Of a DNA stretch of 64,000 bases, positions 17,985-62,905 are shown one piece after another. The DNA is from an uncultured Olsenella sp. Lineage in GTDB: Bacteria; Actinomycetota; Coriobacteriia; Coriobacteriales; Atopobiaceae. The first letter of the stretch is position 1. The number at the start of each line of letters is the position of its first letter. Under the pieces are notes generated by a model. That model did no database searches. It was given only the letters and a program-made list of their open reading frames with translations, and was not told the DNA's origin. The position numbers and the translations under genes were made by a program. Location: the NCBI GenBank assembly GCA_949290055.1, contig CASEQJ010000002.1, positions 38,010-102,009 of the forward strand, read 5' to 3'.

Positions 17985-19103
17985 GTGGACGAGCTACAGC
18001 GTGTCGACGAACTCTACGAGCGGGTTTCTCTCCTTATTGAACGCTCTCGGGAGCGTGCTCGGACCGCAATCAACGTCTCCATGGTCTACGCCTACTTCGA
18101 GATAGGGCGCATGATCGTTGAGGTGGAGCAAGGGGGAAGCCGGAGGGCGGAGTACGGGAAAGCGGTGCTCAAGGGGCTTGCGCAGCGGCTGACCGCGCGC
18201 TTTGGCAGGGGATACTCGGAGGATAACCTCAAGCTTATGAGGCGCTTCTATCTCGTCTATTCCGAGGACGAGATTGGGGAAACACCGTTTACCAAATTCA
18301 AGGGTCTCCCCAAGACGAGCACGGGCCGCTCATTCTACCTTAGCTGGTCCCATTACCTTCTGCTCATGCGTATCAGTAACGTCGAGGAGCGCCATTTCTA
18401 TGAAATTGAGGCGGCTCGCAACGGCTGGAGTCTCTCAGAGTTGAACCGTCAGCGAGACAGCTCGCTCTACGAGCGGCTTGCCCTCAGTCGAGACAGGGAC
18501 GAGGTGTGGCGTCTCTCGCAAGAGGGTCAAGTGGTCGAGCGCCCCGAGGACCTCGTCAAAGACCCTTACGTTCTCGAGTTTCTCGGGCTGCCAGAGTCCC
18601 CTGGGCTCTCCGAGTCGGAGCTCGAATCTCGCATCATTGCTCAGCTTGAGACGTTTCTGCTGGAAATGGGAACGGGATTCACCTTTGTGGAGCGGCAGGC
18701 GAGGCTCACCTTCGAAGAAGACCACTTTTATGTCGACCTGGTCTTTTTCAACAGGATTCTGAGATGCTTCGTTCTAGTTGATTTAAAAATGGGAAAGCTC
18801 CGGCATCAGGACATTGGGCAGATGCAGATGTATGTGAACTATTACGACCGCAAGGTGAAGCTGCCAGACGAAGCTCCCACGATAGGAATTGTCCTTTGCA
18901 AGGACAAGAAGGACTCGGTGGTTGAAATGACCCTTCCGGAGGGTCGGCAGCACATTTTCGCGAGTGCGTACCAAACGGTGCTTCCACGGAAGGAGGACCT
19001 TGTGCGACTGCTCGAGGAGGGTGAGTCTCTAGGCTTGGCGCGCGAGCACTCGTCTACGCGCGGGCGGCTCCCCACACGCTACAATTGCGAGCGGACAACG
19101 TGA
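17985..19103 (+). CDS. YhcG-like PDDEXK nuclease domain protein (DUF1016)
   Basis: 372 aa. N-terminus ...INVSMVYAYFEIGRMIVEVEQGG..RAEYGKAVLKGLAQRL and C-terminus FYVDLVFFNRILRCFVLVDLKMGKL..QDIGQMQMYVNYYD are typical of DUF1016. The gene is visibly less GC-rich than its flanks. Confidence 0.85.
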   Translation: MDELQRVDELYERVSLLIERSRERARTAINVSMVYAYFEIGRMIVEVEQGGSRRAEYGKAVLKGLAQRLTARFGRGYSEDNLKLMRRFYLVYSEDEIGETPFTKFKGLPKTSTGRSFYLSWSHYLLLMRISNVEERHFYEIEAARNGWSLSELNRQRDSSLYERLALSRDRDEVWRLSQEGQVVERPEDLVKDPYVLEFLGLPESPGLSESELESRIIAQLETFLLEMGTGFTFVERQARLTFEEDHFYVDLVFFNRILRCFVLVDLKMGKLRHQDIGQMQMYVNYYDRKVKLPDEAPTIGIVLCKDKKDSVVEMTLPEGRQHIFASAYQTVLPRKEDLVRLLEEGESLGLAREHSSTRGRLPTRYNCERTT

Positions 19104-45700: not shown

Positions 45701-45736
45701 GGGGCTGCCGCGTGATTGCGTGCGGCAGCCCCTTTT
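45701..45736 (+). terminator. Rho-independent terminator after the ACT gene
   Basis: GGGGCTGCCGC-loop-GCGGCAGCCCC followed by TTTT. Its 3' half is already part of repeat copy A. Confidence 0.75.
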
Positions 45737-45930
45737 CCTGTCGAGCGGGGGGCGAGTGGCGCCCGTTTTTCCCGCGAGTGGACAATTATGGAGATTCCCG
45801 TTTACTTCTGGCGGGGGAGCGGGCATACTAGCCAACGCACATTTCAGAAGGGCGCCCCCCGGCGCAGCCGAGCACATCACTTTTCAGGTTTCAGCGTGTA
45901 AGAGGTAAGGGCAAGAGACATGATCACCAA
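45722..45930 (+). repeat. Copy A of a ~210-bp duplicated non-coding leader module
   Basis: By manual alignment, the core 45790-45928 matches 49232-49370 at 129 of 139 positions without indels. A 64-nt run is identical (45861-45924 = 49303-49366). Weaker similarity extends back to 45722/49163. Confidence 0.9.
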
Positions 45931-46134: not shown

Positions 46135-47796
46135 ATGGACAACGAGAAGACCGAGGCCGCGCAGGACGGAGCCGCAGAGCAGGGCGTCTCTCTGAGCAAA
46201 TTGCTCAAGCGCCTACGCGAGCAGGGAAGCATTGGCGCTGACGTCAAGTCGCCCGGGATGCACCTGATGCTCGCGGATGCCGGGCTCGTCGAGCGCGTCA
46301 CGGACGAGGAGGGCGCGAAGACCTGGCAGGTCACGGAGCTCGGCCGCAAGTGGGGCATCAGCCAGAGGCCCTCGACCGACGGGCACGGCTCGTACCCCGT
46401 GTACGATGAGCGCGGCGTCCGGAAGGTCCTTGAGCTCTTGTCGGCCGACGTCGACGGCTCGGCCTACGCTGCCGCCAGGGAGCGCGTCGCAGCCGCAGCC
46501 AAGCCCGACAAGCCCCGCTTCCCCGATTCCATCGACGACGGGAACGCGCTCTGTCGCCGCGGCGAGCGCCTCGTGCCCGACTTCGTCGAGCGCGCCGCGC
46601 CGCTCATTGGCCGCAACCTGAGCGCAGGGCCGGATCTCGACGCCCTTCCCAGCATGTCAAGTCTCTACGACCACGACCACGACCGTCCGGCCCTTCTCTT
46701 GTGCGCCAGGACGCCGTACTTCAAGGCCGGTTACTACGGCAGGGACAAGCGGGGTCGACTCCTCGAGAAGAAAAACGGCCCGTCCTGCACCGTCTCGCTT
46801 GACGCCAACCAGCTCAGGCGGGCCCGTGCGGCATATCCGGACAGCGATCTCTATGTCTATGTGCACTGGGAGCGCCTTGCCATGGGCGGCAGGCGCGTCG
46901 AGCCGCTCGAGGGCGTGTGGGTGGCACGCCTTGCCGACCTTGGGGACAAGGTCGATCAGGGCCTGCTCGCTCACTCCGGCCCCGTTGAGAGCAAGGTGCA
47001 CGACGGCGAAAGCCTTGACATTTACCTCATCAGCCTGCTCGACCCCGTCTTCACGGAGCTCTGGTCGCGCAGGGGCAAGGACGTCCTCGCCCCCATGGAG
47101 CCTGACGCGCCCGCCTCGTGCAAGCGGCTGATAGCGGAGGCGTCCATGGGAAGCCTCCGCGACGCCCTGTCCAAGGGGTGGGAGGTGCTCGAGAAGGGCG
47201 TACAGGAGATGGACTGCGACGAGAAGTGCGTCATCGCGCCGGACTTCTCGCCCAACGAGGGGGGCAATCAGGACAAGGCGAAGTACGACACGTCCCTCTC
47301 CCGTCTCTACTACTTCCTTCGCTACGGGTACGGCTATGCCTATGAGTACTACCTCATGTGGCGTGATCTGCTCGAAGACATGGACCGACAGAACCTTGGG
47401 AAGGAGAAGTTGGACGTCCTCTCGCTCGGGTGTGGCAACGGCGTCGACCTCTGGGCGCTCCGCTCTCTGTTGGCAGAGCGCGGAGAGTCCGACCGACTTA
47501 CGGGCTACGTGGGCGTTGATATTGCTGACTGGTCCGACCTCTGCTTCCCGCTCCCAGAGGGGGAGGGCTATCGGTATCGGTGGGGGTGCAGTGCCGCCGA
47601 TTACCTGGAGAGCGAAGAGGCGCGCAAGCACAGGTACCCCTGCGCGCGCGTCATCGTCCTCCCAAAGAGTCTCGGGGAGATGAGCGAGGACGAGATTAAG
47701 AGGGTTGGTGAGAGCATCTTCCAGTACAACGAGCACTGCTGGCATTACCTGTGCGTCTGCCCACCCCATGGCTACAAGGACAGGGAGGGAATCTGA
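46135..47796 (+). CDS. Hypothetical 553-aa multidomain protein with a C-terminal class-I SAM-methyltransferase-like motif
   Basis: A GAGAGGGG SD precedes the ATG. Motif I is LDVLSLGCGNGVDLWAL, followed by an acidic post-I residue (YVGVDIADW). The N-terminal ~100 aa look HTH-like, and the central ~250 aa are unrecognised. Confidence 0.7.
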   Translation: MDNEKTEAAQDGAAEQGVSLSKLLKRLREQGSIGADVKSPGMHLMLADAGLVERVTDEEGAKTWQVTELGRKWGISQRPSTDGHGSYPVYDERGVRKVLELLSADVDGSAYAAARERVAAAAKPDKPRFPDSIDDGNALCRRGERLVPDFVERAAPLIGRNLSAGPDLDALPSMSSLYDHDHDRPALLLCARTPYFKAGYYGRDKRGRLLEKKNGPSCTVSLDANQLRRARAAYPDSDLYVYVHWERLAMGGRRVEPLEGVWVARLADLGDKVDQGLLAHSGPVESKVHDGESLDIYLISLLDPVFTELWSRRGKDVLAPMEPDAPASCKRLIAEASMGSLRDALSKGWEVLEKGVQEMDCDEKCVIAPDFSPNEGGNQDKAKYDTSLSRLYYFLRYGYGYAYEYYLMWRDLLEDMDRQNLGKEKLDVLSLGCGNGVDLWALRSLLAERGESDRLTGYVGVDIADWSDLCFPLPEGEGYRYRWGCSAADYLESEEARKHRYPCARVIVLPKSLGEMSEDEIKRVGESIFQYNEHCWHYLCVCPPHGYKDREGI

Positions 47797-47811
47797 GACA
47801 ACGACCTTGCC

Positions 47812-48138
47812 ATGCGGGAGAGCGTTTCCCTCCTGCTCGAGCACGTGGGCCTCAGGGTTGGGGTCGACGACGCGATCAGGGGCGAGAAGCGCCGCGCGGA
47901 CAGGCGCATCTCCCAGCTCACCGACGAGGGCTGGTGGGGGCACCTGAGCATGGACGACGAGGATTGTCTCAAGCGGGTGCTGGGCGAGGAACTTCCCCCA
48001 TGCTGCCCGTATCACGGGGCGACGACGTGCACGTGGAAGGAGCGCGAGAAGAAGGTGCGCTGCCCGATCGAGAAGAGCCCCATCCTGCGCGGCTGGTTCC
48101 CCTGCTACCGCGTCTACTATCTCGACGGCCTGTGCTAG
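47812..48138 (+). CDS. Hypothetical Cys-rich small protein (108 aa)
   Basis: The C-terminal half reads CCPYHGATTCTWKEREKKVRCPIEKSPILRGWFPCYRVYYLDGLC (7 Cys). It starts 15 nt after the upstream stop. The SD is weak. Confidence 0.5.
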   Translation: MRESVSLLLEHVGLRVGVDDAIRGEKRRADRRISQLTDEGWWGHLSMDDEDCLKRVLGEELPPCCPYHGATTCTWKEREKKVRCPIEKSPILRGWFPCYRVYYLDGLC

Positions 48139-48165
48139 CAGCGCGCCCGCGCGAAAGGAGCGACC

Positions 48166-49113
48166 ATGATCATAAGCGCGAGCCGGCGCACGGACATACC
48201 GGCGTTCTACGCTGAGTGGTTCGCGAACCGCGTCCGCGAGGGGTTCGTGTGCGTGCGCAACCCCATGAACGCCCACCAGGTGAGTCGCGTGAGCCTCGAC
48301 CCGGCCCTTGTGGACTGCATCGTCTTCTGGACCAAGAACCCCGCTCCCATGCTCGAGCACCTCGACGCCTTCGCGGCTTACCCGTACTACTTCCAGGCCA
48401 CGCTCACCGGCTACGGCCGCGACGTCGAGGGCAACCTTCCCGACAAGCACGAGGTCCTTCTCCCCGCCATGAAGGAGCTCGCGCACAGAATCGGCCCCGA
48501 GCGCGTCGTCTGGCGCTACGACCCCATTCTCTTTAACGAGAAGTACACGCCGCAGTACCACCTGCGCGCGGTGCGCGAGATCGCGGAGGAGCTCGAGGGC
48601 TGCACGGAGAAGTGCGTCATCAGCTTCGTTGACACCTACCAGCGGAACCGCAAGAGCATTGAGACGCTCGGCGCGCGTGACGACCTGCCCTCCGAGCGGG
48701 AGTTCCGCGCCTTTGCGACCGAGCTCGCGGACACGGTGCGCGCCCACGGCATGGCGTGCGCGAGCTGCGCCGAGCGGGTGAACCTCGCCGACTGCGGCAT
48801 AAAGCACAACTGCTGCGTCGACCGCGCCCTGATCGAGCGCATTCTGGGCTGTCCCCTGGACGTCAAGAAGGACAAGACGCAGCGTCCGGAGTGCGGCTGC
48901 GTGACGAGCATTGACGTGGGCACCTACAACACCTGCCCGCACGGTTGCCGCTACTGCTACGCCAACTTCAGTCCCGAGTCCGTCGAGCGCAGCCGCGCCG
49001 CCTACGACCCGGCCTCCCCGCTTCTGTGTGATCGCCTGCGCGAGGACGACGTCGTGACGGACCGCAAGGTCAAGCGGCTCTCCTCGGGTCAAGCCACGCT
49101 GCCGTTCGCATAG
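48166..49113 (+). CDS. DUF1848 domain protein with a C-terminal CxxxCxxC cluster (radical-SAM-like)
   Basis: MIISASRRTDIPAFYAEWFANRVREGFV...IVFWTKNP is the typical DUF1848 N-terminus. The C-terminus reads ECGCVTSIDVGTYNTCPHGCRYCYAN. A strong AAAGGAG SD is present. Confidence 0.8.
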   Translation: MIISASRRTDIPAFYAEWFANRVREGFVCVRNPMNAHQVSRVSLDPALVDCIVFWTKNPAPMLEHLDAFAAYPYYFQATLTGYGRDVEGNLPDKHEVLLPAMKELAHRIGPERVVWRYDPILFNEKYTPQYHLRAVREIAEELEGCTEKCVISFVDTYQRNRKSIETLGARDDLPSEREFRAFATELADTVRAHGMACASCAERVNLADCGIKHNCCVDRALIERILGCPLDVKKDKTQRPECGCVTSIDVGTYNTCPHGCRYCYANFSPESVERSRAAYDPASPLLCDRLREDDVVTDRKVKRLSSGQATLPFA

Positions 49114-49162
49114 GGCCGCGCGCTGTCGCTCTTCCCGCCTGAGGGCCGTCGCACACGAGCGT

Positions 49163-49372
49163 GCGGCGGCTCCCTTTTCCTGCCAGACAGGGGTCGAACG
49201 GTACCCGTTTTGCCCGCGAGCGGATTTTTTTGGAGATTCCCGTTTACTTCCGGCGGGGGAGTGGGCATACTATCCACCGCGTAATTCAGAAGGGCGCCTC
49301 CGGGCGCAGCCGAGCACATCACTTTTCAGGTTTCAGCGTGTAAGAGGTAAGGGCAAGAGACATGATTACCAA
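49163..49372 (+). repeat. Copy B of the ~210-bp duplicated leader module
   Basis: See copy A. It begins in the 3' half of the terminator-like hairpin GCCGTCGCAC...GTGCGGCGGC (49145-49170). Confidence 0.9.
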
Positions 49373-49821: not shown

Positions 49822-50718
49822 ATGACAATGCACGGTTCCGTTCTAGACGAGCGCATAGAGGGGGCGTTCTCGTTTGTCCCCACTCCCGAGCTTATCGTCG
49901 TAAGCCTGCGCATTGCGGCGGACATGCCTCTCGAGCGCTACTGCCTCGGGGGCGCCGCGCTTGCGGCATGCCAAGAGGTCATGGATTCGGACCTGGTTGG
50001 CCTTGAGGTCAAAACAAACGGTTCTCACCTGCCGTCTCAGTTGAGCTCGGTCCGCGAGGCCGTGGGCGTTGCGCTCCTGCTGGACGAGGCCTCCCAGAGC
50101 TCACGGGCTCGCGCCAAGACCCTCGCGAACCTGCGCGACCAGCTGATACGCGCCCTTCTCGCTCCGGTCGAGCGCTACGTCGAGCGACACCGCAGGGGGT
50201 GGGACCGGCGGCAGGAGGGCAGCGCCGGCTCACGCGCGAGACGGGCGTTTTGCTACGACGTGAGCATTCTCACGACGCAGCGAAGGGGGCCAAGGCCCAC
50301 CCCTCGCGAGGCTTATGCGCTGCTCTGCGCGCTCGCCTTTGCCGACGACGCGCACATTCGAGAGGCAATAGCGACCCTGGGAGGCCTCGACGGTCGCGAC
50401 GCGCTCGAGGCGCAGGCTCGCTACGAAGAACATTCGCGCTTCTTCTCCGGCTGCCAGTCCGCAAGCGCCGCGAGCGCATACAACAGCGTCGTCTATGCCG
50501 ACCATGGCGAGCCCGAGGGAATCGACGACCTCATTGAGGCGTGCGCGGGCGCGACGGAGCAGCCCGAGCCGATCTCCGGGGACACCGCGGCCGCGTTTCT
50601 CCACCTCTACCTCGAACCCATTGCGCTCATGGAGCGCTTTGGGGGAGGCTGCGCGCCCGGCGACCTAATCGGGAGCAGCCCCAACCCCACGCTCACCAAG
50701 CGAATCCTGGCGGCGTGA
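49822..50718 (+). CDS. Hypothetical protein (298 aa)
   Basis: An AAGGAAGG SD lies 6 nt before ATG 49822 (MTMHGSVLDERIEG...). No recognised domain. An in-frame TTG at 49639 would add a very basic extension, which I consider unlikely. Confidence 0.55.
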   Translation: MTMHGSVLDERIEGAFSFVPTPELIVVSLRIAADMPLERYCLGGAALAACQEVMDSDLVGLEVKTNGSHLPSQLSSVREAVGVALLLDEASQSSRARAKTLANLRDQLIRALLAPVERYVERHRRGWDRRQEGSAGSRARRAFCYDVSILTTQRRGPRPTPREAYALLCALAFADDAHIREAIATLGGLDGRDALEAQARYEEHSRFFSGCQSASAASAYNSVVYADHGEPEGIDDLIEACAGATEQPEPISGDTAAAFLHLYLEPIALMERFGGGCAPGDLIGSSPNPTLTKRILAA

Positions 50719-50761: not shown

Positions 50762-52126
50762 ATGCACATGCACAACACCACCGTCGTCACCGAATCCACC
50801 CGCGCCCCCTACCGCGGCTCGACGATCGTCGGCCGCGACCGCTCCCTCGAGACCGACTCTTTTCTGACGGGACTCAACGACAACGTGCTCGTCATAGGTC
50901 CCTCTGGCGCGGGCAAGACGCGCCACGTGCTCAAGCCCAACCTGCTCCAGACGGGACCGAGCTTCATCGTGCTCGACACGAAGGGCACACTCTGTGCCGA
51001 CATGGCGCCGGCGCTCGTGCGGGCGGGCTATACCGTCGAGCGGCTCGACTTCGCCGGCGTCTGCGACCGGCCCGCGTCGCTTCCCGAGGGCGTGAGAAAC
51101 GTCGGGTACGACCCGCTCGTCTTCATTCGGCGCAACGCTGACGGCGGCGTGAACCAGCAGGACGTCATCTCCGTCGCCAGCGCGCTCTGCCCCGTCGAGA
51201 ACGGTGACGAGCCGTTCTGGGACCACGCCGCCTCGAACCTGCTCACCGCGCTCATCGCCTACGTCGTCGAGGAGCTGCCCCAGGAGGAGCAGACCTTCGC
51301 CGCGGTGATCGAGCTCGACGAGCACCTGCACGACGGCGCGACGTTTCGCCTGCTCGAGGAACTCGAGCTCACAAGTCCTCGGAGCCTCGCGGGCTCCACG
51401 TACCGCCGCTACGCCGCCACGCGGGAGTCCGAGCGGACGAACGCGAGCATAGTCGGCATAATCGCCGAGAAGCTCAGGTGCCTGGGCTTTGACGGGGCAC
51501 TTAACCTCTACACTGCCCCCGATCGGGTGGACTTTGCCCGCTACGGCCACGAGCGTCGCGCTCTGTTCGTGACGATCAGCGACGTCGACCGCTCGCTCGA
51601 CTCGCTCACGAGCCTGTTCGTCGCCCAGGCGTTCGGCGCGCTCATACGCGAGGCCAATCGCTGCCCGGGCGGTCGGCTGCCCCAGCCTGTGCGCCTCTTC
51701 CTTGACGACTTCGCGAACCTCTACATAGAGAACATCGACGACATCCTCGCCGTCGTTCGCAGCCGAGAGATCTGGTGCACGCTTCTGCTGCAGTCGGTGA
51801 ACCAGCTCGAGGCGCGCTACGGCCGCTCGCGTGCCATGTCGATCATGGGCAACTGCGACACGCAGCTCGTCCTGGGCTTCCAGGACCTCGACACGGCGCA
51901 CTGCTTCTCCGAGCGCGCGGACCGCATGCCCAAGACCCTGCTCGAGATGAGCCCGGAGCGCTCCTGGCTCTTCGTGCGCGGTCATGCCGCCGAGGAGATC
52001 GAGTCCTACCACCTCGAGGAGCACCCGCGCTACTTCGAGCTCCGCGAGGGCGAGGGCGCGGGCCTCGGGCGAGAAGAGCCCGCGCCCGCCTCGAGCGACT
52101 TCGACGACCCCGAGCTCCCACGCTAG
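50762..52126 (+). CDS. VirD4/TraG-like type IV coupling-protein-family ATPase lacking TM segments
   Basis: Walker A VIGPSGAGKTRHVLKPNLL, Walker B VRLFLDDFANL, and the T4CP-typical SREIWCTLLLQSVNQLEARYG. There is no hydrophobic N-terminal anchor. The start is 50762 or, with better SD spacing, 50768. Confidence 0.75.
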   Translation: MHMHNTTVVTESTRAPYRGSTIVGRDRSLETDSFLTGLNDNVLVIGPSGAGKTRHVLKPNLLQTGPSFIVLDTKGTLCADMAPALVRAGYTVERLDFAGVCDRPASLPEGVRNVGYDPLVFIRRNADGGVNQQDVISVASALCPVENGDEPFWDHAASNLLTALIAYVVEELPQEEQTFAAVIELDEHLHDGATFRLLEELELTSPRSLAGSTYRRYAATRESERTNASIVGIIAEKLRCLGFDGALNLYTAPDRVDFARYGHERRALFVTISDVDRSLDSLTSLFVAQAFGALIREANRCPGGRLPQPVRLFLDDFANLYIENIDDILAVVRSREIWCTLLLQSVNQLEARYGRSRAMSIMGNCDTQLVLGFQDLDTAHCFSERADRMPKTLLEMSPERSWLFVRGHAAEEIESYHLEEHPRYFELREGEGAGLGREEPAPASSDFDDPELPR

Positions 52127-52166: not shown

Positions 52167-52763
52167 ATGAGCCACCAGATCCTCAGCCCCCACACCATGC
52201 GCGAGACCTCGCGCGGTATCTCGCTCACGAGCATTTACGACGAGATGCTCGCTCGCCGTGAGCTCTCCGTGACCGGCGAGGTGACGCAGGCCATGGCGTT
52301 CGACGTCTGCCAGCAGCTGCTGCAGCTCGAGCATACCGACCCCGAGGCAGAGGTCACGCTCTACGTGGCGAGCCCGGGCGGCAGCGTCTCGGCCGGCCTC
52401 GCCATAGTGGACACCATGCGCACGATCTCCTGCCCCGTGCGCACCGTGTGCCTGGACACGGCCGCGTCCATGGGTGCGGTCATTTTCGTTTGTGGCGACC
52501 GCCGGGAAATGTTCCCGCACGCCGAGCTCATGATCCACGACCCGCTGATCCAGAACGCGGGCGGCTCGGCGCTCTCCGTGCAGGAAACGAGCCGCCGCCT
52601 CATGGGCCTGCGCCGCACCCTCAGCCAGATCCTGGCCGAGCGCAGCGGCCTCTCCGTCAAGCGCGTGCAGACGCTCACCGCGCGCGACACGTTCCTCACC
52701 GCCGAGCGTGCCTGCGAGCTGGGCTTTGCCGACGCGATCGTGAGCCCGCGCAAGGCTGCGTAG
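52167..52763 (+). CDS. ClpP-fold serine protease family protein
   Basis: 198 aa with YVASPGGSV, the catalytic Ser context DTAASMGAVIF, the His context LMIHDP, and the Asp context LTARDTFLTAERACELGFADAIV. Confidence 0.8.
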   Translation: MSHQILSPHTMRETSRGISLTSIYDEMLARRELSVTGEVTQAMAFDVCQQLLQLEHTDPEAEVTLYVASPGGSVSAGLAIVDTMRTISCPVRTVCLDTAASMGAVIFVCGDRREMFPHAELMIHDPLIQNAGGSALSVQETSRRLMGLRRTLSQILAERSGLSVKRVQTLTARDTFLTAERACELGFADAIVSPRKAA

Positions 52764-52798: not shown

Positions 52799-53101
52799 AT
52801 GGCAGAGAACGACCAGCCGACGTTTTTTGAGGCGAACCCCACGTACGCGACGCTCGTCTTCGCGGCGCAGGACGCCCGCGAGCGCCTCGTGGAGGCGCTC
52901 TCCGGTGAGCTCGACCGGCGCCTGACGCTGGAGGGCGACCCCGAGTACGAGCGCTACGGGCGTCCCAGCAACGACGAGTACCTCGCTGACTACGTTCACG
53001 CGCTGTGGCGCGTTCGGGAGTACGAGAACGAGCACCCGGACGAGGCTCGCGCCTGCGCGGAGCGGTTCGGCGCTGCGGCGCGCGTGGAGGGAATCGAGTG
53101 A
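52799..53101 (+). CDS. Hypothetical small acidic protein (100 aa)
   Basis: A strong GGAAGGAGG SD is present. Starts MAENDQPTFFEANPTYATLVF. No recognised domain. Confidence 0.55.
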   Translation: MAENDQPTFFEANPTYATLVFAAQDARERLVEALSGELDRRLTLEGDPEYERYGRPSNDEYLADYVHALWRVREYENEHPDEARACAERFGAAARVEGIE

Positions 53102-53197: not shown

Positions 53198-54148
53198 ATG
53201 AACGGCACCACTATTCCTTTCGAGAAGAACGACGAGGTCAAGGGCGGGCTCTCAGCAGCCGCCGTCAGGCGCTATGAGCCCCTGGTCACGAACGGGACGA
53301 TTCGCTCGTTCAATGGCTTTCTTGCCGGCCTGTGCTGCCCCGAGGGAGAGATCGGGACGTTTGCCCCTGGCGTGAGGTACCTCTGCGAGCGCCTGGACGG
53401 GGCGAGTCACGCCCTGCTCGAAAGGAGCGGGTTCTTCTCGCTCGAGACGGAGGAGGCGCGCGCCGGGCTCTTGGAAAGCTCGCCGGAGGCGACCCTCGGC
53501 ATGGGTCTGCAGACGTCCTGTCTCGTGCTTGGTACGCAGGTCAAGAGCTCCATGGAGAAGTGCGAAGCCGTGCGTGCAGAGTGGCTCGCCGCAGACGACC
53601 TTGACGAAGTCGACGACTTCAACGACGAGGACGAAAACCTCGAGTGCCTTCCCGTCAGCGAGCTCTCGGTCATTGTCGGCCTCGTTCCGGACGGAATGGC
53701 GCAGGCGCTTCTCGCCGCCTTCCACACCATCGTGCACGACCCCGCGCTCGAGGCGCTTCTCGACGTCATGGTGTCGCTTATCGACGGGGACATTGAAAAG
53801 GAGGAGGGCGGCTGGTTCATAGAGACCGACGTCGCCCTTGGCGTTGCGTTCATGTGCGAGCAGTTCCTCCGCTTCGCCGAAAGCCACCGCGGCGAGCAGA
53901 GTCTGGTTGAAATCAGCGAGGACCGCCTTAACCTCCGCGACGGGGGAGACCCGGTGCTTGACGGCCTCTACGACCATGTGGGGGACGACGGCTGGTTTGC
54001 CTCGCTTTCCGAGGACGAGCGTCGCCGCCTCGAGGCGTGGTCGAGCGGCGAGGGGTTCGAGGCGTGCTTCGCCCTGACGCTCCTCACGATCGGCATGCTC
54101 GCGGGCAACGTCCGTGACAACGCCGCCGTTCGGGTGGTCAACCGCTAG
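53198..54148 (+). CDS. Hypothetical protein (316 aa) with an acidic central patch
   Basis: An AGAGGGAG SD precedes ATG 53198. It has a D/E-rich central segment (AADDLDEVDDFNDEDENLE). No recognised domain. Confidence 0.55.
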   Translation: MNGTTIPFEKNDEVKGGLSAAAVRRYEPLVTNGTIRSFNGFLAGLCCPEGEIGTFAPGVRYLCERLDGASHALLERSGFFSLETEEARAGLLESSPEATLGMGLQTSCLVLGTQVKSSMEKCEAVRAEWLAADDLDEVDDFNDEDENLECLPVSELSVIVGLVPDGMAQALLAAFHTIVHDPALEALLDVMVSLIDGDIEKEEGGWFIETDVALGVAFMCEQFLRFAESHRGEQSLVEISEDRLNLRDGGDPVLDGLYDHVGDDGWFASLSEDERRRLEAWSSGEGFEACFALTLLTIGMLAGNVRDNAAVRVVNR

Positions 54149-54225
54149 CGGCGCCCTCTCCGGGGCGGGTGGGCCCCGCCCCGGATTCGGTGCGTCCGAT
54201 CAACGCAACGTCAAGGGAGCCGCGA

Positions 54226-56664
54226 ATGGAAATCGGAGAGATCCTCGACCGCTACGCCGTCTGCGCCGACGTGCTCGGTCGAAAGAAGGACTCGAGGAGG
54301 TCCAGGGACCCAAACGCCTACCCAGCCTACGAGCAGGAGGGCTACTCGACGGCGTGGTTCTTCAAGGAGGCGGGCGACGGCGCGGGCCTGAACGACCTCA
54401 CGCGCGCCTTTCTCGGTGACGCCTCGGCGCGCTCGCGCCTTCGCTTTGGCGCGGCGGAGGCGGCCTCGTTCGAGGGTCACCTGCTCGAGGGTGACCACCC
54501 GCTCAACGCCAGCCAGCGCCGGGCCGTTGCCCGTGCGCTCGAGAGCGACGTCTCGCTCGTGCAGGGGCCTCCGGGCACCGGCAAGACCAAGACGATCCTC
54601 AATATGGTCTCGTGCATGCTCGCGCGCGGGGCGACGGTCGCCGTGGTCGCCAACAACGGCAAGGCGATCGACAACGTTCGCGAGCAGGTCGAGGGGTGGG
54701 GACCGGGCTCGGGTGCGGGTCCCAACCAGCGGCGCATGAACGAGTGCTATGCCCGTCTCGGCAGGAAGGACCTTCGACGGGGGTGGGTCAGGCGCCACCC
54801 GGACGCCCCCGAGTGCCTCCGCTTTGCCGATTGCGGCTGGGAGCCCACCGTGCGCGCCGAGGTCTTTCTCGCCAGCTATCCCTTTGTGACGAGCACGATC
54901 CACTCGCTCAAGAAGTGCTTCGCCGACGGCCGCAGCCACCAGTACGACTACGTGATCATGGACGAGGCGTCGCAGTGCAGCCCGCTTCTGGGCCTCATTG
55001 CCATGAGCGCGGCGCGCCACCTCGTGCTCGTGGGGGACGACGAGCAGCTTCCGCCGATTCACTCCGAGGAGCAGGACCTCGAGCTGCGTTCCGCCCTCGC
55101 CGAGCGGGGGCTCGACGAGATCGGGGACGCGCGCTATGCGCTCGCCGACGCCGAGACGGGCACCGGCAGGAGCGTCCTTCTCGCCATGAGGCTCGCCCTC
55201 GGCGACGACCTGCCGAGCACGCTTTTGAACGAGCACTACCGCTGCCACCCGGGAATCATCGGCTTCTGCACCGAGGCGGTGTACGCGCCCGTGGGAAAGG
55301 AGCTGCAGGTTCGCACCCCGGACGACGGCCGGGGCGTGAGGGTCCCGATTCGCGTGCGGTGGTTCGAGGGGAACTACTGCGAGCGCGTGCGCCCCGAGGA
55401 CGGGGGCGAGCGGGGGTACCACAAGCTTTCGCGCACCAACGCGCGGCAGCTCGAGGTCTTCATGCGCGAGGAGTGGCCGGAGCTGCGGCGACGCATGGGG
55501 GAGCGCCGCCCGCCGAGCGTCTGCGTGCTCTCGCCGTATCGCGGGCTGCTCGCAGAGCTGGGGGAGCGCCTTGCTCGTGAGGGCGTCGACCCCGCGGAGA
55601 CGACCGAGGGGACGGGAGGCGACCCGCTCGTGGCTCCGGAGGTTCCCGCGCTCACCATTCACAAGTCCCAGGGTCAGGAGTTTGACATGGTCTACCTGCT
55701 CCCGGGTGAGGACGGTTCGTGGGAGTGGCCCTGGACGGAGGCGAGGTCGCTGATCAACGTGGCCGTCTCGCGGGCGAGGCGCGAGCTCGTGATTGTGGCG
55801 TCGTCGTGCCTCATGGGCGTCGACGTTCAGGTGGCGCTCGTGGGGGAGGACCGCGTGGTCGGACCCTACCAGCGCGACATGAGCGAGGAGGAGCGGGAGC
55901 GCCGCAAGCGGCGCGAGCTGTACCTGCAAAAGCTCGTCGACTACGTGCGCGAGCGCAACGACCCCGCACGCGACTCCGACGCGCCGAGCGGTTTCCCGGA
56001 GAGCTCGTATGACTACGGGTTCCACCGCACGGCTCTGCGTTCCGTCTTCGACGTCGTGGCGCGCCTTCGCAGGGAGGCGCCGCATAGGTGGGGCGCGGAC
56101 GACTGGGCCACCGAGCGGGCCCTCGAGCGCGCGTTCGAGGGGGTCGACCTCGCGGGGCGCGGGCTCGGCGTCAGGCGCGGCGTCAGGCTCGCGGAGTGTT
56201 TCGACGCGAGCGACGAGCGGCTCGCAGGTGCGGGCGACCCGGCGCGCGTGAGGGAGTTTCTCGCGACGGACGCGCACTTCGACTTTGTGGTCCATGAGCT
56301 GGCAACGGGGCGCATGGTGCTCGCCATCGAGGTCGACGGCGCGCCGCACCGCACGCTCAAGGGCAAGGCCACCGAGCAAAACTGGGGGGAGAAGGTCCGT
56401 GAGCTGAGGCTCAGGCGGGAGAACGACGCGTTGAAGGACGCCATGGCTCGGGCGCTCGGCGCTCGGGTGCTCGCCACCAACCGACGCGCGGAGCTCGAGC
56501 GCTGCGAGGTGGAGCGGCCCGCGTTCACCCTGCTGCGCCTGCCCACCGACGGTTCGTGCGCCTTCGAGGTCGAGGCCCTGTTCGACGGAGCCCCCGCCGG
56601 CGCGGCAGACGACTTCGTGACAATTGAGGAGCTGCTCGACGAGACGGGGGGACGGAGGTTCTGA
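54226..56664 (+). CDS. Upf1/DNA2-like SF1 helicase fused to a C-terminal Vsr/DUF559-like endonuclease domain
   Basis: Helicase motifs: LVQGPPGTGKT (I), YVIMDEASQ (II), LVLVGDDEQLPP (III), YRCHP, TIHKSQGQEFD (V) and NVAVSRARRELVIV (VI). C-terminal DFVVHELATGRMVLAIEVDGAPHR (D...ExDG..H) is nuclease-like. The start is at MEIGEILDRY. Confidence 0.85.
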   Translation: MEIGEILDRYAVCADVLGRKKDSRRSRDPNAYPAYEQEGYSTAWFFKEAGDGAGLNDLTRAFLGDASARSRLRFGAAEAASFEGHLLEGDHPLNASQRRAVARALESDVSLVQGPPGTGKTKTILNMVSCMLARGATVAVVANNGKAIDNVREQVEGWGPGSGAGPNQRRMNECYARLGRKDLRRGWVRRHPDAPECLRFADCGWEPTVRAEVFLASYPFVTSTIHSLKKCFADGRSHQYDYVIMDEASQCSPLLGLIAMSAARHLVLVGDDEQLPPIHSEEQDLELRSALAERGLDEIGDARYALADAETGTGRSVLLAMRLALGDDLPSTLLNEHYRCHPGIIGFCTEAVYAPVGKELQVRTPDDGRGVRVPIRVRWFEGNYCERVRPEDGGERGYHKLSRTNARQLEVFMREEWPELRRRMGERRPPSVCVLSPYRGLLAELGERLAREGVDPAETTEGTGGDPLVAPEVPALTIHKSQGQEFDMVYLLPGEDGSWEWPWTEARSLINVAVSRARRELVIVASSCLMGVDVQVALVGEDRVVGPYQRDMSEEERERRKRRELYLQKLVDYVRERNDPARDSDAPSGFPESSYDYGFHRTALRSVFDVVARLRREAPHRWGADDWATERALERAFEGVDLAGRGLGVRRGVRLAECFDASDERLAGAGDPARVREFLATDAHFDFVVHELATGRMVLAIEVDGAPHRTLKGKATEQNWGEKVRELRLRRENDALKDAMARALGARVLATNRRAELERCEVERPAFTLLRLPTDGSCAFEVEALFDGAPAGAADDFVTIEELLDETGGRRF

Positions 56665-61177: not shown

Positions 61178-61440
61178 CGTGCCTCCCTTCCTCGCCTCTA
61201 GCGTATCGCAGCTGGCTGCCGGCGGGCGCTCGATTTAGGCGGTCGGGCGAATCCGGCGGATAACGCGCTCGATCAAGCACAACATTCTATATGCGCAGGT
61301 GAAAATAACGCGCTTGTACGATTGAGCGCATTATTATGTGCGGCGGCGCGGGCGGGCGAGAAGAACGCGCAGCCCCGCATGTTTCAGGTTTGTTTTTCGC
61401 CCTGTGCGCCGCGGGTCCGCCGTGCTAGGCTACCCACACA

Positions 61441-61599
61441 GATAGAGGAGCGGACACGAAGAGCCGTGGGGGAGCCGGCAGGCACAGATCCCCGGGGAGG
61501 CGAGGTCCGCCGAACTGTCGCGTCGGGCGCGGCGCGGCGGTGGGCCCGCGGGAAAGACCCTCGGGACTGTCTGCGAGAAGAACTCGCAGGTGCGCTATC
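61441..61599 (+). promoter_or_regulatory. Lysine riboswitch (L-box) in the lysA leader
   Basis: P1 pairs GATAG...CTATC. The conserved blocks are AGAGGAGCG (consensus AGAGGCGC), GGCGAGGTCCGCCGAAC (consensus ...CGCCGAAG), and GGGACTGTCT followed by the hairpin GCGAG-AAGAA-CTCGC and GGTGCGCTATC. Lysine biosynthesis genes lie downstream. Confidence 0.8.
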
Positions 61600-61657
61600 C
61601 TTGCCGGACGCACGTCCGCCCCGGGGCCGCGCACCTGCACGGCGAGCGAGGGGTGTC

Positions 61658-62905
61658 ATGCAGAAGCGTCCGTTTGTCACGCGCGAGAAGCTCGAGGCCA
61701 TAGCGGCCGAGTACCCAACGCCGTTCTACCTCTATGACGAGGCCGAGATTCGCCGCCGCGCGGCGGAGCTCTCCGCCGCCTTTGCGTGGAACCCCGGCTT
61801 CAAGGAGTACTTTGCCGTCAAGGCCACGCCCAACCCCGCCATACTTCGAATCCTCGCGGAGTGCGGCTGCGGCTGCGACTGCGCCACGGGCGTGGAGCTT
61901 TTGCTCACGGACCGCGCGGGCGTGAGTGGCCGCGACATTATGCTCTCCTCCAACGACACGCCCGACGAGGACTTCCGTGCCGCGGACGAGCGCGGTGCGA
62001 TTATCAACCTGGACGGTCCGGACATGGTGGCCTGCCTCCAGCGCGCCCTCGGCGGGCGCGTGCCGCGCACCGTGTGCTGCCGCGTGAACCCGGGCGGGAC
62101 CTTCGAGAGCGCGAACGGCATAATCGGCTCGCCGGCAGACTCCAAGTTCGGCATGACGCCGGCGCAGCTCGAGGCCGCCTTTGCCGAGCTTGCCGCCCTG
62201 GGCGTGGAGGAGTTTGGGATCCACGCGTTTCTCGCCAGCAACACGCAGGTGAACGACTACTACCCGCGCCTTGCGCGCCGGCTCTTTGAGACGGCGGTGG
62301 ACCTCTCCGCGCGCCTGGGCGTGCACATTGGCTTCGTCGACCTCTCCGGCGGGATCGGCGTGGCCTACCACCCGGAGGACACCCCCTGTGACCTGGCAGT
62401 CATTAGCGAGGGGGTGCGGCAGGCGCATGAGGACGTGCTCGTGCCCGCGGGCATGGGCGACGTCGCGGTCTTCTCTGAGCTGGGACGCTGGCTGCTCGCG
62501 CCGGCGGGCGCGCTCGTGACCCGCGTCATTCACGAGAAGGTCACCTACCATGACTACCTGGGTGTGGACGCCTGTGCGGCCAACCTCATGCGCCCGGCGA
62601 TCTACGACGCCTACCACCACGTGAGCGTCATGGGCGCCGAGGACGCGCCGTGCACGCGCCGCTACAACGTGGTCGGCCGGCTCTGCGAGAACAACGACCA
62701 GTTCGCCCGTGACCGCCTCATGCCCGAGTGTCACGTCGGCGACCTGCTGTTCATTCACGACGCGGGCGCCCATGGCCACTCCATGGGCTACAACTACAAC
62801 GGCGCGCTGCGCTCCGCGGAGCTGCTGCTGCGCACAGACGGATCGGTGCAGCTGATCCGCCGCGCCGAGACACCCGCCGACTACCTGGCAACGCTGGACG
62901 TGTGA
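61658..62905 (+). CDS. lysA: Diaminopimelate decarboxylase
   Basis: Starts MQKRPFVTREKLEAIAAEYPTPFYLYDE. PLP-Lys context YFAVKATPN. C-terminal VVGRLCENNDQFARD (C-E-x-x-D). The start is taken at 61658 rather than the ORF-track 61322. Confidence 0.85.
   Translation: MQKRPFVTREKLEAIAAEYPTPFYLYDEAEIRRRAAELSAAFAWNPGFKEYFAVKATPNPAILRILAECGCGCDCATGVELLLTDRAGVSGRDIMLSSNDTPDEDFRAADERGAIINLDGPDMVACLQRALGGRVPRTVCCRVNPGGTFESANGIIGSPADSKFGMTPAQLEAAFAELAALGVEEFGIHAFLASNTQVNDYYPRLARRLFETAVDLSARLGVHIGFVDLSGGIGVAYHPEDTPCDLAVISEGVRQAHEDVLVPAGMGDVAVFSELGRWLLAPAGALVTRVIHEKVTYHDYLGVDACAANLMRPAIYDAYHHVSVMGAEDAPCTRRYNVVGRLCENNDQFARDRLMPECHVGDLLFIHDAGAHGHSMGYNYNGALRSAELLLRTDGSVQLIRRAETPADYLATLDV

What the first reader, a model, noticed from the sequence alone, without database searches (positions are those of the whole stretch)
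46135..49113. Cassette 1: MTase-motif protein + Cys-rich 108-aa protein + DUF1848 (CxxxCxxC). Candidate radical-SAM-type modification module
Seen in sequence:
- Three tightly packed same-strand genes have gaps of 15 and 27 nt and are flanked by the two leader copies.
- DUF1848 ends with ECGC…CPHGCRYCYAN. CPHGCRYC is the CxxxCxxC spacing used by radical-SAM enzymes to bind a [4Fe-4S] cluster, although here it is C-terminal.
- The middle gene encodes 7 Cys in its last 45 aa (CCPYHGATTC…RCP…FPC…GLC).

Inference, two readings:
- (a) A nucleic-acid modification or repair-type enzyme set (SAM-using MTase-like plus radical-SAM-like plus a Zn/Fe-S accessory) that marks self DNA or RNA for the neighbouring helicase-nuclease cassette.
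- (b) A RiPP-like set in which the Cys-rich protein is a substrate.

I know of no described defence or modification system built on DUF1848.
Basis: partly seen in the sequence, partly recalled or inferred. Interest (0 to 1): 0.75.

Follow-up and report, generated by a model that had tools for sequence, protein, structure and literature searches.

The report
Methyltransferase-like/DUF1848 pair in defence-type island
The "three-gene cassette" is really two genes, a methyltransferase-like protein (broken here by a stop codon) and a conserved iron-sulfur-type DUF1848 enzyme, and they belong with the neighbouring helicase-nuclease, ATPase and protease genes to an untested, probably anti-phage or anti-plasmid system.

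Summary
All three ORFs, both gaps and the flanking ~200-nt repeat are real. However, ORF1 (553 aa) and the "Cys-rich 108-aa protein" share one reading frame and are split only by TGA at 47794-47796. Five related contigs read TGG (Trp) there and encode one 673-690-aa protein. This excludes the RiPP reading.

The second half of that protein is a SAM-methyltransferase-like fold with a Cys-containing tail. It belongs to a family of mostly ~300-aa stand-alone proteins. Such a gene lies directly upstream of DUF1848 in 27 of 61 surveyed DUF1848 loci.

In other genomes the same domain is fused to the C-terminus of an SF1 helicase-nuclease that sits beside ClpP-like and VirD4-like genes. So "cassette 1" and "cassette 2" are functionally linked.

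DUF1848 has an invariant CX3CXYC motif plus about six other invariant Cys. A confident model shows a beta/alpha barrel with no close solved relative. Radical-SAM chemistry is plausible but unproven.

DUF1848 is not wholly undescribed in defence: it is a reported partner of UG25 reverse transcriptases and has a PADLOC model.

Best reading: a modular, methylation-associated-type defence island, Atopobiaceae-type by PfkA similarity, whose methyltransferase-like gene is mutated in this strain.

The parts
45701..45930 (+). Leader copy 1. It holds the terminator hairpin of the upstream ACT-domain gene (45701-45732), promoter-like TTTACT (45801) - 17 nt - CATACT (45824), and a 64-nt block (45861-45924) identical to copy 2.
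   Evidence: The promoter reading is by eye and falls below the scan threshold. No Rfam match.
46135..48138 (+). One gene for a ~667-aa protein, interrupted by TGA at 47794-47796 (TGG in relatives). It has an N-terminal region and a methyltransferase-like region with a Cys-containing tail.
   Evidence: Intact 673-690-aa orthologs are P0001-P0003, seen in L002, L003, L005 and L098.
46135..47154 (+). N-terminal ~340 aa: a helix-rich winged-helix-like part plus a beta-rich domain. The stand-alone homologs of the beta-rich domain carry a PD-(D/E)xK-like motif (AIDLxD...ADLKxQxTPFF). Here the acidic and Lys positions are replaced (SLYDHDHDRPALLLCARTPYF).
   Evidence: Pfam and PDB give no assignment. 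The nuclease-like reading is inference from the motif only.
47155..47793 (+). Rossmann-type SAM-methyltransferase-like core. Family motifs: LRYGYGYAYEYY, LSLGCGNGVDLW (motif I), YVGVD and LPKSLGE.
47797..48138 (+). Family-conserved positions are LC(P), a second C, and RxPI.
48166..49113 (+). DUF1848 protein, 315 aa. Invariant Cys: C51, C201, C217, C243, C245, C257, C261, C264 and C288. CPHGCRYC fits CX3CX(aromatic)C.
49143..49372 (+). Leader copy 2. It holds the terminator hairpin after DUF1848 (49143-49172), TTTACT (49243) - 17 nt - CATACT (49266), and the identical 64-nt block (49303-49366).
49822..50718 (+). Unknown 298-aa protein, the first gene of the second operon. The start is as called in L002, with GAAAGGAAGG upstream.
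   Evidence: No family hit.
50762..52126 (+). VirD4/TraG-like P-loop ATPase of the CD1115 type, with Walker A GPSGAGKT.
52167..52763 (+). ClpP-like serine protease. The Ser/His/Asp motifs are intact (AASMG at 99, MIHDP at 122, ARDTF at 172).
52799..53101 (+). Unknown 100-aa protein.
53198..54148 (+). Unknown acidic 316-aa protein.
54169..56664 (+). SF1 helicase (AAA_11/AAA_12) with a C-terminal restriction-endonuclease-like domain. The domain gives weak DUF2726 and MTES_1575 hits and carries the motif FDFVVHE...EVDGAPH.

Best explanation
The region 45.7-56.7 kb is one modular, defence-type (conflict) island inserted between housekeeping genes (PaaK/ACT upstream, TatA downstream). The host is an Atopobiaceae-type actinobacterium, judged from PfkA cluster membership.

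The island has two modules.
- Module 1 is a two-gene SAM-related unit. Gene 1 encodes a methyltransferase-like protein, here extended by an N-terminal nucleic-acid-binding region with a degenerate nuclease-like domain. Gene 2 encodes DUF1848, a very conserved beta/alpha-barrel protein. Its invariant Cys, including CX3CXYC, most likely bind one or two Fe-S clusters.
- Module 2 comprises a VirD4-like ATPase, a ClpP-like protease, three small unknown proteins and an SF1 helicase fused to a restriction-endonuclease-like domain.

Inferred mechanism: the methyltransferase-like/DUF1848 pair acts on nucleic acid, either marking or sensing it with SAM-dependent and possibly radical chemistry, in physical contact with the helicase-nuclease. 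The helicase-nuclease, together with the ATPase and protease, then acts on foreign DNA.

Both operons carry the same promoter/leader and are probably co-regulated.

In this strain the methyltransferase-like gene carries a TGG-to-TGA nonsense mutation. Module 1 is therefore probably impaired, or at best expressed as two polypeptides.

Shown: gene structure, conservation, pairing, fusions, synteny and fold class. Inferred: defence role, substrate, chemistry and interaction.
For: - Gene structure. The single gene is split by TGA, and relatives read TGG.
- Pairing with DUF1848. A methyltransferase-like gene lies directly upstream and co-directional in 27 of 61 DUF1848 metagenome loci that have enough upstream sequence, with gaps of -145 to +197 nt and mostly -4 to +6. 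The same pairing is seen in L008, L009, L011, L012, L101 and L102.
- Helicase fusions. The methyltransferase-like domain is fused to the C-terminus of SF1 helicase + DUF2726 proteins (P0016, P0023, P0038 and others). These fusions sit next to DUF1848 and to ClpP and VirD4-like genes (L010, L093, L097).
- Synteny. The full gene set recurs in four different orders: window/L002/L098, L010, L011 (Collinsella) and L093.
- Defence or mobile-element context. DUF1848 hits PADLOC RTasDUF1848 at 2e-45, and UG25 RT + DUF1848 is published. The helicase's best PADLOC hits are MkoA and MkoC. L012 carries a WYL/WCX regulator, a PLD-helicase and an AAA ATPase. Firmicutes pairs lie next to HsdR, an N6-methyltransferase, a Mob_Pre relaxase and an integrase.
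- Modularity of the core. ClpP + VirD4-like genes also occur with other partners (an S1CSD-TOTE-2 protein + helicase, or a metallophosphatase) and as a ClpP::VirD4 fusion.
- Mosaic evolution. In L008 and L009, DUF1848 is 98% nt identical to the window gene, while the upstream partner is only ~35-40% aa identical to the window protein's methyltransferase-like half.
- DUF1848 properties. Nine Cys are invariant. The AlphaFold model has pLDDT 91.8 and shows a beta/alpha barrel. Weak fold matches include the Elp3 radical-SAM domain and several phage radical-SAM proteins.
- Shared leader. It is present in front of both operons in all close relatives.
Against: - There is no experimental evidence for any component.
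- None of the non-helicase proteins matches a validated defence system. PADLOC gives nothing for ClpP or the unknown proteins.
- DUF1848 is unusually conserved for a defence gene: over 8000 homologs scored at E<=1e-5, and the 120 best listed are at least 56% identical.
- About half of its loci lack the partner and sit among ordinary genes, such as NUDIX, endonuclease IV, ABC transporter and glycosidase genes.
- Paired and solitary DUF1848 genes are intermixed in a tree.
- None of the 80 gut metagenome loci carries the helicase/ClpP/VirD4 set.
- The ClpP/VirD4-like core exists without the methyltransferase-like/DUF1848 pair, so the two modules are separable.
- The methyltransferase-like domain has LPKS where DNA amino-methyltransferases have (D/N/S)PP(Y/F). 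Its strand assignment comes from a low-confidence model.
- The gene is disrupted here and, by a frameshift, in L006 and L007.
Confidence: 0.5

Rival explanations
1. The island is an accessory or remnant module of a conjugative or mobilisable element. The VirD4-like coupling ATPase, ClpP and helicase would process or transfer DNA. The methyltransferase-like/DUF1848 pair would modify the element's own DNA to evade recipient restriction.
For: - The VirD4-like protein nearly reaches the NCBIfam 'conju_CD1115' cut-off (243 vs 250 bits).
- Its homologs are abundant on conjugative plasmids (1551 of 2285 matching plasmid records).
- Some Firmicutes methyltransferase-like/DUF1848 pairs lie beside Mob_Pre relaxases or integrases.
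Against: - No relaxase, VirB4, integrase or other T4SS gene lies in the 11-kb island, whose flanks are housekeeping genes.
- Close VirD4-like homologs (50-74% identity) are chromosomal in Coriobacteriia and always sit beside ClpP and variable effector-like genes, not T4SS genes.
- Plasmid homologs are only 28-34% identical.
Confidence: 0.15
2. The methyltransferase-like/DUF1848 pair is a housekeeping nucleic-acid modification or repair enzyme set (tRNA/rRNA modification, or DNA repair). It merely lies next to an unrelated helicase/ClpP/VirD4 cassette.
For: - DUF1848 is very conserved and often solitary among ordinary genes, sometimes near endonuclease IV or NUDIX genes.
- The best, though weak, fold matches of the methyltransferase-like part are to TYW4 and small-molecule O-methyltransferases.
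Against: - The methyltransferase-like domain is repeatedly fused to the helicase-nuclease, and the two gene sets are syntenic in four arrangements.
- The methyltransferase-like partner is rare (440 hits at E<=0.001 among 1.84 billion representatives), hypervariable and mosaic.
- The gene is inactivated in two lineages, which is unlike an essential housekeeping enzyme.
Confidence: 0.13
3. RiPP-like set: the Cys-rich 108-aa ORF is a precursor peptide modified by the radical-SAM-like enzyme.
For: Only the local appearance of a small Cys-rich ORF next to a CX3CX2C protein.
Against: - The ORF is in frame with the upstream gene and contiguous with it in five related contigs.
- The same tail is part of the ~300-aa stand-alone family and of the helicase fusions.
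- Only 2-3 of its Cys are conserved.
Confidence: 0.02

Closest known systems
UG25 reverse transcriptases (Class 1 UG/Abi, N-terminal methyltransferase domain) with associated DUF1848 protein (Mestre et al. 2022, PMC9226505; PADLOC model PDLC03815 'RTasDUF1848')
   Same: A DUF1848 protein is partnered with a methyltransferase-domain protein in a predicted defence context. The window DUF1848 hits the PADLOC model at 2e-45.
   Different: No reverse transcriptase is found in the island. The partner here is a methyltransferase-like protein with an N-terminal DNA-binding or degenerate nuclease-like region. The associated machinery is an SF1 helicase-nuclease, a VirD4-like ATPase and ClpP. I could not test whether the UG25 methyltransferase domain is the same family, because no UG25 sequence was available.
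Methylation-associated multi-gene defence systems (BREX, DISARM, MADS). Their composition is recalled from my own knowledge, apart from the PADLOC hits.
   Same: A multi-gene island combines a methyltransferase-type protein with a helicase, a nuclease, an ATPase and (as with BrxL in BREX) a protease-family protein. 4 of 54 methyltransferase-like family members hit PADLOC mad2, and the VirD4-like protein hits mad8 at 2.9e-8.
   Different: No PglX, PglZ, BrxC, DrmA, DrmB or other signature proteins are present. The methyltransferase-like domain lacks the DNA amino-methyltransferase (D/N/S)PP(Y/F) motif. A DUF1848 Fe-S-type enzyme is not part of any of these systems. The mad hits are weak and partial.
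Radical SAM superfamily (PF04055; for example Elp3, TYW1)
   Same: DUF1848 has a CX3CX(aromatic)C motif (CPHGCRYC) that is invariant across its homologs and a beta/alpha-barrel fold. Weak Foldseek hits include Elp3 and phage radical-SAM proteins. A local match to the cluster loop of TIGR04470 scores E=0.0036.
   Different: The motif lies at residues 257-264 of 315, after the last barrel strand instead of after strand 1. There is no PF04055 hit. Five to six further invariant Cys suggest other or additional clusters. No biochemical data exist.
Mokosh (MkoA/MkoC) and other SF1-helicase defence proteins
   Same: The cassette-2 helicase gives its best PADLOC hits to MkoA (9e-37) and MkoC (5e-34).
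   Different: The hits cover only the helicase core. There is no PLD nuclease. The gene partners differ (ClpP, VirD4-like, methyltransferase-like/DUF1848).
VirD4-like conjugal transfer protein, CD1115 family (NCBIfam NF045973)
   Same: The 454-aa ATPase scores 243 bits against a cut-off of 250, and it has T4SS-DNA_transf and TraG-D_C domains.
   Different: It is below the family cut-off, chromosomal and without T4SS neighbours. It is always next to ClpP and is sometimes fused to it.

Membership tests
Pfam DUF1848 (PF08902) | Full-length match above the gathering score | tested here: met
   349.5 bits against a cut-off of 30.5; residues 2-266 match profile positions 1-262 of 262.
Radical SAM superfamily | CX3CX2C (CX3CX-aromatic-C) cluster-binding motif, conserved | tested here: met
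   C257-PHG-C261-RY-C264 is invariant in 40 homologs of 56-99% identity.
Radical SAM superfamily | Sequence match to the Radical_SAM domain (PF04055) or a curated radical-SAM family | tested here: not met
   No PF04055 hit at E<=0.01. The only match is 23 residues to TIGR04470, at 16.7 bits against a cut-off of 410.
Radical SAM superfamily | Partial or full (beta/alpha) TIM barrel with the cluster loop following strand beta1 | tested here: inconclusive
   The confident model is a beta/alpha barrel. The best PDB matches are generic TIM barrels plus Elp3, with E about 1e-3 and TM at most 0.37. The motif follows the last strand, not beta1, so membership would require a circular permutation.
Radical SAM superfamily | [4Fe-4S] cluster and reductive SAM cleavage | not testable with these tools
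   Needs anaerobic purification, UV-vis/EPR and a 5'-deoxyadenosine assay.
Class I SAM-dependent methyltransferase | Motif I (GxGxG) and the acidic residue at the end of beta2, conserved | tested here: met
   LSLGCGNG and YVGVD are present. G107, G109 and D137 (P0006 numbering) are invariant in 54 family members.
Class I SAM-dependent methyltransferase | Match to a curated methyltransferase family above threshold | tested here: not met
   Methyltransf_34 gives 16.3 bits against a cut-off of 26. Only 4 of 54 family members hit Methyltransf_23, best E=8e-6. No PDB sequence hit.
Class I SAM-dependent methyltransferase | Rossmann methyltransferase fold | tested here: inconclusive
   The model has mean pLDDT 50, rising to about 70-78 in the core. 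Its Foldseek hits are methyltransferases (TYW4 at 3e-4, plus O-methyltransferases), but TM is only about 0.15.
DNA amino-methyltransferase of restriction-modification/BREX type | (D/N/S)PP(Y/F/W) catalytic motif after strand beta4 | tested here: not met
   The family has (F/L)PKS at that position. The strand assignment comes from a low-confidence model.
UG25 DRT-type system | Reverse transcriptase gene fused or adjacent to the methyltransferase domain | tested here: not met
   No RT domain is found in any island protein, nor in the 20 representative-search hits with the methyltransferase-like and/or N-terminal domain that were scanned.
UG25 DRT-type system | Associated DUF1848 protein | tested here: met
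   PADLOC RTasDUF1848 at 2e-45.
MADS | Set of mad1-mad8 genes | tested here: not met
   Only the VirD4-like protein hits mad8 (2.9e-8), and 4 of 54 family members hit mad2. P0001 and the other island proteins hit no mad model.
RiPP biosynthetic cluster | Separate precursor peptide gene | tested here: not met
   The 108-aa ORF is the in-frame C-terminus of the upstream gene.
Integrative conjugative element / T4SS | Relaxase, VirB4-type ATPase, integrase and mating-pore genes near the coupling protein | tested here: not met
   None lies in 45.7-56.7 kb or in the related loci L002, L010, L011, L093 and L105-112.

The most novel reading that the evidence does not exclude
DUF1848 is a circularly permuted, C-terminal-cluster radical-SAM-type enzyme. 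Together with its dedicated SAM-binding methyltransferase-like partner, it would install or read a so far unknown nucleic-acid modification. This two-gene unit would be a portable self/non-self module that plugs into different effectors: reverse transcriptases (UG25), SF1 helicase-nucleases with a ClpP/VirD4-like core, and AAA ATPases. That would define a new chemistry for modification-based immunity.
Probability: 0.2. Interest if true: 0.8.

Novelty: new variant of a known kind. Interest (0 to 1): 0.55.

Why it matters
DUF1848 is a large family of strongly conserved proteins with no known function: more than 8000 sequence clusters scored at E<=1e-5 in one capped search, and the 120 best are at least 56% identical to the window protein.

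This analysis gives it a concrete, testable context: a dedicated methyltransferase-like partner, recurrent fusion of that partner to a helicase-nuclease, and residence in defence or mobile-element neighbourhoods.

If the pair performs a new SAM/Fe-S-dependent nucleic-acid modification, that would add a new marking chemistry to bacterial immunity. It would also explain the DUF1848 partner of the UG25 reverse transcriptases.

The ClpP + VirD4-like core with exchangeable effector genes also looks like an undescribed family of conflict systems in gut Coriobacteriia.

Natural alleles exist for comparison: intact in L002/L098-type strains, nonsense in this strain, and frameshift in L006-type strains. 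These offer a ready-made comparison for modification mapping.

Tried and rejected
- Exact search for the 55-nt leader core in genome contigs found 0 hits.
A narrower alignment found only 2 genome loci.
- Leader as a known RNA: no Rfam hit at the gathering threshold or at E<=1. Fold z-scores were 0.67 and -0.62.
- AlphaFold of the 673-aa protein from 5 sequences gave pLDDT 50, so its fold matches are only indicative.
- PDB sequence searches found nothing usable for DUF1848, the 673-aa protein, the methyltransferase-like family or the middle domain.
- The PD-(D/E)xK reading of the middle domain has no Pfam or PDB support and is kept only as a motif-level inference.
- Homology among the small unknown proteins of the different system variants was not detectable by BLASTP.
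- Literature: only the UG/Abi paper links DUF1848 to defence. No paper describing a ClpP/VirD4/helicase/methyltransferase system was found. The primary MADS paper and any 'TOTE/S1CSD' paper are not in the library.
- Selenocysteine or recoding at the TGA was rejected: relatives have plain TGG, a single G-to-A change.
- RiPP reading rejected (see rival explanations).
- Reverse-transcriptase fusions were sought among the representative-search hits. 20 multi-domain or stand-alone hits were scanned and none has an RT domain. Several are helicase fusions.

Full report
**1. What is in the sequence**

The three ORFs exist exactly as reported:
- 46135-47796, 553 aa
- 47812-48138, 108 aa
- 48166-49113, 315 aa

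All are on the + strand, with gaps of 15 and 27 nt. Third-position GC is 0.85, 0.92 and 0.91, like the surrounding genes of this ~66% GC genome.

The PfkA encoded in the window shares a 90%-identity cluster with Olsenella uli and Thermophilibacter proteins. The host is therefore an Atopobiaceae-type member of the Coriobacteriia.

A 201-nt direct repeat (45730-45930 and 49172-49372, 87% identity) flanks the cassette. It occurs only twice in the window.

**2. The "three genes" are two**

ORF1 and ORF2 are in the same reading frame and are separated only by TGA at 47794-47796.

A protein search with ORF1 returned just five proteins. Three are 673-690 aa long and cover ORF1 and ORF2 without interruption (...DREGIWDNDLAMRESVS...).

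At the nucleotide level, L002, L003, L005, L098 and L006 all read TGG where the window reads TGA. This is a single G-to-A transition.

An independently assembled contig (L001) is 100% identical to the window over 3438 nt and carries the same TGA. The stop is therefore a property of this strain and not a one-off assembly error.

In L006 and L007 the same gene is split differently, into 331 + 324 aa, by a frameshift in the variable linker.

The "Cys-rich 108-aa protein" is thus the C-terminal tail of the upstream protein. This removes the basis for the RiPP reading. The tail has 6 Cys in its last 45 residues, not 7. Only two or three of these Cys are conserved across the family.

**3. The large protein**

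An exhaustive profile search found 440 relatives at E<=0.001.

*C-terminal half (~aa 340-667).* This half is a family in its own right, made up mostly of ~300-aa stand-alone proteins. Its conserved features are:
- a Tyr-rich helix (LRYxYAYAYEY)
- methyltransferase motif I (VLSxGCGxGxDYW)
- YxGID
- FPKSIxE
- a C-terminal tail with conserved Cys and RxPI

Curated methyltransferase models are hit only weakly. A low-confidence AlphaFold model (pLDDT 50) matches class I methyltransferases, with TYW4 first, at low TM-scores. I therefore call the domain "methyltransferase-like". It has (F/L)PKS where DNA amino-methyltransferases have (D/N/S)PP(Y/F).

*N-terminal 340 aa.* This region is specific to the window's close relatives. 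It also occurs at the N-terminus of a DEAD-helicase/phosphoribosyltransferase protein (P0009).

*Middle part.* The middle part occurs as ~240-aa stand-alone proteins. Some of these begin with a cold-shock-type domain, and all carry a PD-(D/E)xK-like motif, AIDLxD...ADLKxQxTPFF. In the window protein the acidic and Lys positions are replaced (SLYDHDHDRPALLLCARTPYF). If the domain is nuclease-derived, it is probably inactive and may serve in binding. This point is inference only, because Pfam and PDB give no assignment.

**4. DUF1848**

ORF3 is a full-length DUF1848 protein (E=2e-104).

The family is very large and very conserved. One capped search returned 8000 homologs at E<=1e-5, and the 120 best listed are at least 56% identical across Actinobacteria and Firmicutes.

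In 40 aligned sequences, nine Cys are invariant: C51, C201, C217, C243, C245, C257, C261, C264 and C288. CPHGCRYC fits the radical-SAM pattern CX3CX(aromatic)C.

The AlphaFold model is confident (pLDDT 91.8) and shows a beta/alpha barrel. No solved structure is close:
- The best PDB matches have E about 1e-3 and TM at most 0.37. They are generic TIM barrels plus the radical-SAM domain of Elp3.
- Among viral predicted structures, one fragment of a large crAss-like phage protein matches at E=1.4e-8 with TMq 0.59.
- Several phage radical-SAM proteins appear among the weak hits.

There is no PF04055 hit, and the motif lies after the last barrel strand rather than after strand 1. Radical-SAM chemistry is therefore plausible, and would need a permuted topology, but it is not established. 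An Fe-S cluster with a structural or DNA-binding role is an alternative.

**5. The two genes form a conserved pair**

I surveyed 80 metagenomic DUF1848 loci. Of these, 61 have at least 900 nt of upstream sequence. In 27 of the 61, a methyltransferase-like gene lies directly upstream and co-directional, usually overlapping or within a few nucleotides.

The pair is also seen in L008 and L009, L011 and L012, and two virome contigs.

The remaining DUF1848 genes are solitary among unrelated genes (NUDIX, endonuclease IV, ABC transporter, glycosidase) or show remnants or IS insertions. Paired and solitary DUF1848 genes are intermixed in a tree. The partner is therefore gained and lost often.

In L008 and L009, DUF1848 is 98% nt identical to the window gene. 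The upstream partner there is only ~35-40% aa identical to the window protein's methyltransferase-like half and lacks the N-terminal extension. A near-invariant enzyme with a hypervariable partner is the pattern expected when the partner carries specificity.

**6. Link to "cassette 2"**

The methyltransferase-like domain is repeatedly fused to the C-terminus of SF1 helicases that also carry a DUF2726-type nuclease domain (P0016, P0023, P0038 and others). This is the architecture of the window's 831-aa helicase. The fusion genes are adjacent to DUF1848 and, in L010 and L093, to ClpP-like and VirD4-like genes:

| Locus | Gene order |
|---|---|
| L010 | 299 aa - ClpP - VirD4-like - helicase::methyltransferase-like - DUF1848 |
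| L093 | VirD4-like, ClpP and three small genes, divergent from helicase::methyltransferase-like - DUF1848 |
| L097 | DUF1848 - helicase::methyltransferase-like |
| L011 (Collinsella MAG) | methyltransferase-like - DUF1848, convergent with helicase - VirD4-like - ClpP |
| L002, L098 | Whole window arrangement, with an intact first gene |

The association is not obligatory, however:
- The ClpP + VirD4-like core also occurs with an S1CSD-TOTE-2 protein plus helicase (L105-108).
- It occurs with a metallophosphatase (L109-112).
- It occurs as a ClpP::VirD4-like fusion (P0330, P0331).
- The methyltransferase-like/DUF1848 pair also occurs with an AAA ATPase behind a WYL/WCX regulator and next to a PLD-helicase (L012).
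- The pair also occurs with a ClpX-like ATPase (L014 group).
- In Firmicutes it lies beside HsdR, an N6-methyltransferase, Mob_Pre relaxases and integrases.

This exchangeable, mosaic organisation is typical of defence (conflict) systems and of mobile-element cargo.

**7. What was already known**

Mestre et al. 2022 report that UG25 reverse transcriptases, which have an N-terminal methyltransferase domain, are associated with a DUF1848 cluster. PADLOC carries the corresponding model, which the window protein hits at 2e-45.

No reverse transcriptase is present here.

Some members of the methyltransferase-like family weakly hit PADLOC 'C3a159 methyl transferase' (18 of 54) and mad2 (4 of 54). 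The VirD4-like protein hits mad8 (2.9e-8). The remaining proteins hit nothing.

I found no paper describing a ClpP/VirD4-like/helicase/methyltransferase-like/DUF1848 system.

**8. The leader**

Each repeat copy has three parts:
- It starts with the terminator hairpin of the preceding gene.
- It continues with a block conserved in all close relatives. This block includes TTTACT-17-CATACT, which looks promoter-like by eye but falls below the scan threshold.
- It ends with a 64-nt stretch that is identical in both copies (45861-45924 and 49303-49366).

The leader precedes both operons in L002, L006 and L098. It is absent from the more distant variants. It has no Rfam match and no significant predicted fold.

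The simplest reading is a shared promoter/operator that co-regulates both operons. It was probably duplicated when the pair was placed upstream of the second operon. Why the 64-nt block stays identical is unexplained. The repeat could also mediate deletion of cassette 1.

**9. Mechanism, as far as it can be argued**

*Shown:*
- gene structure
- the conserved pair
- the fusions and synteny
- intact catalytic-type motifs in ClpP (AASMG, MIHDP, ARDTF), in the ATPase (Walker A) and in the helicase
- conserved SAM-binding motifs in the methyltransferase-like domain
- the invariant Cys set and barrel fold of DUF1848

*Inferred:*
- The methyltransferase-like/DUF1848 unit acts on nucleic acid with SAM-dependent, possibly radical, chemistry.
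- It works in contact with the helicase-nuclease, either as a self-marking or as a sensing module.
- The helicase-nuclease, with the hexameric-type ATPase and the protease, is the effector.

I put about 0.5 on this defence-island model. I put about 0.15 on a mobile-element transfer or anti-restriction role, about 0.13 on a housekeeping modification or repair pair that is only a neighbour, and about 0.02 on RiPP.

In this particular strain the nonsense mutation probably impairs the first gene.

**10. Verdict**

- Reading (a) is supported in outline, and reading (b) is rejected.
- The claim of complete novelty is softened by the UG25/PADLOC precedent.
- The locus remains an interesting, uncharacterised variant of modular defence systems, built around a large protein family of unknown function.
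- Interest: 0.55.

Noticed in passing
window 61435-61605 (+): Lysine riboswitch aptamer (RF00168, 66.4 bits, E=3.8e-15), upstream of the ORF at 61322-62905 region.
   Followed up: no
window 18001-19000: Local GC dip to 0.556 in a genome that otherwise runs at 0.62-0.73. It could be foreign or non-coding DNA.
   Followed up: no
P0330 / P0331 (637 aa); L105-L108; L109-L112: The ClpP-like + VirD4-like pair is a recurrent core in Coriobacteriia. It occurs as a single fused protein. It also occurs with other partners: an S1CSD-TOTE-2 protein + SF1 helicase, or a metallophosphatase. In those cases the methyltransferase-like/DUF1848 pair is absent.
   Followed up: partly
L098 48-1004: A second VirD4-like gene lies upstream of the intact 690-aa methyltransferase-like gene, where the window has PaaK/ACT. 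This suggests tandem or rearranged copies of the system in that strain.
   Followed up: no
L016-L019 (about 6926-7915 in L019): An IS3-family transposase sits directly upstream of DUF1848, and the methyltransferase-like gene is displaced four genes downstream. This is an insertion or rearrangement within a related multi-gene system that also contains a ClpX-like ATPase.
   Followed up: partly
BFVD A0A7M1RU68_5; L104 (LR756501, 7989-8756): A large protein of crAss-like phage cr272_1 contains a DUF1848-like fold (E=1.4e-8, TMq 0.59). A 735-kb 'uncultured phage' encodes a 255-aa DUF1848 relative.
   Followed up: no
L100 (Roseburia plasmid NZ_CP135163) 6322-8942: A macrodomain protein-ADP-ribose hydrolase, a SIR2-family protein and DUF1848 lie in a row, followed by a Phd/YefM antitoxin. 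This is another, NAD/ADP-ribose-flavoured context for DUF1848.
   Followed up: no
L008 / L009 vs window 48165-49224: DUF1848 and the start of leader copy 2 are 98% nt identical to the window. The upstream methyltransferase-like gene is a different, 345-aa stand-alone variant. This mosaic indicates recombination at the gene boundary.
   Followed up: partly
window 45861-45924 and 49303-49366: A 64-nt block is perfectly identical in both leader copies, although the surrounding repeat has diverged to 87% identity. No known RNA family matches it and no significant structure is predicted.
   Followed up: partly
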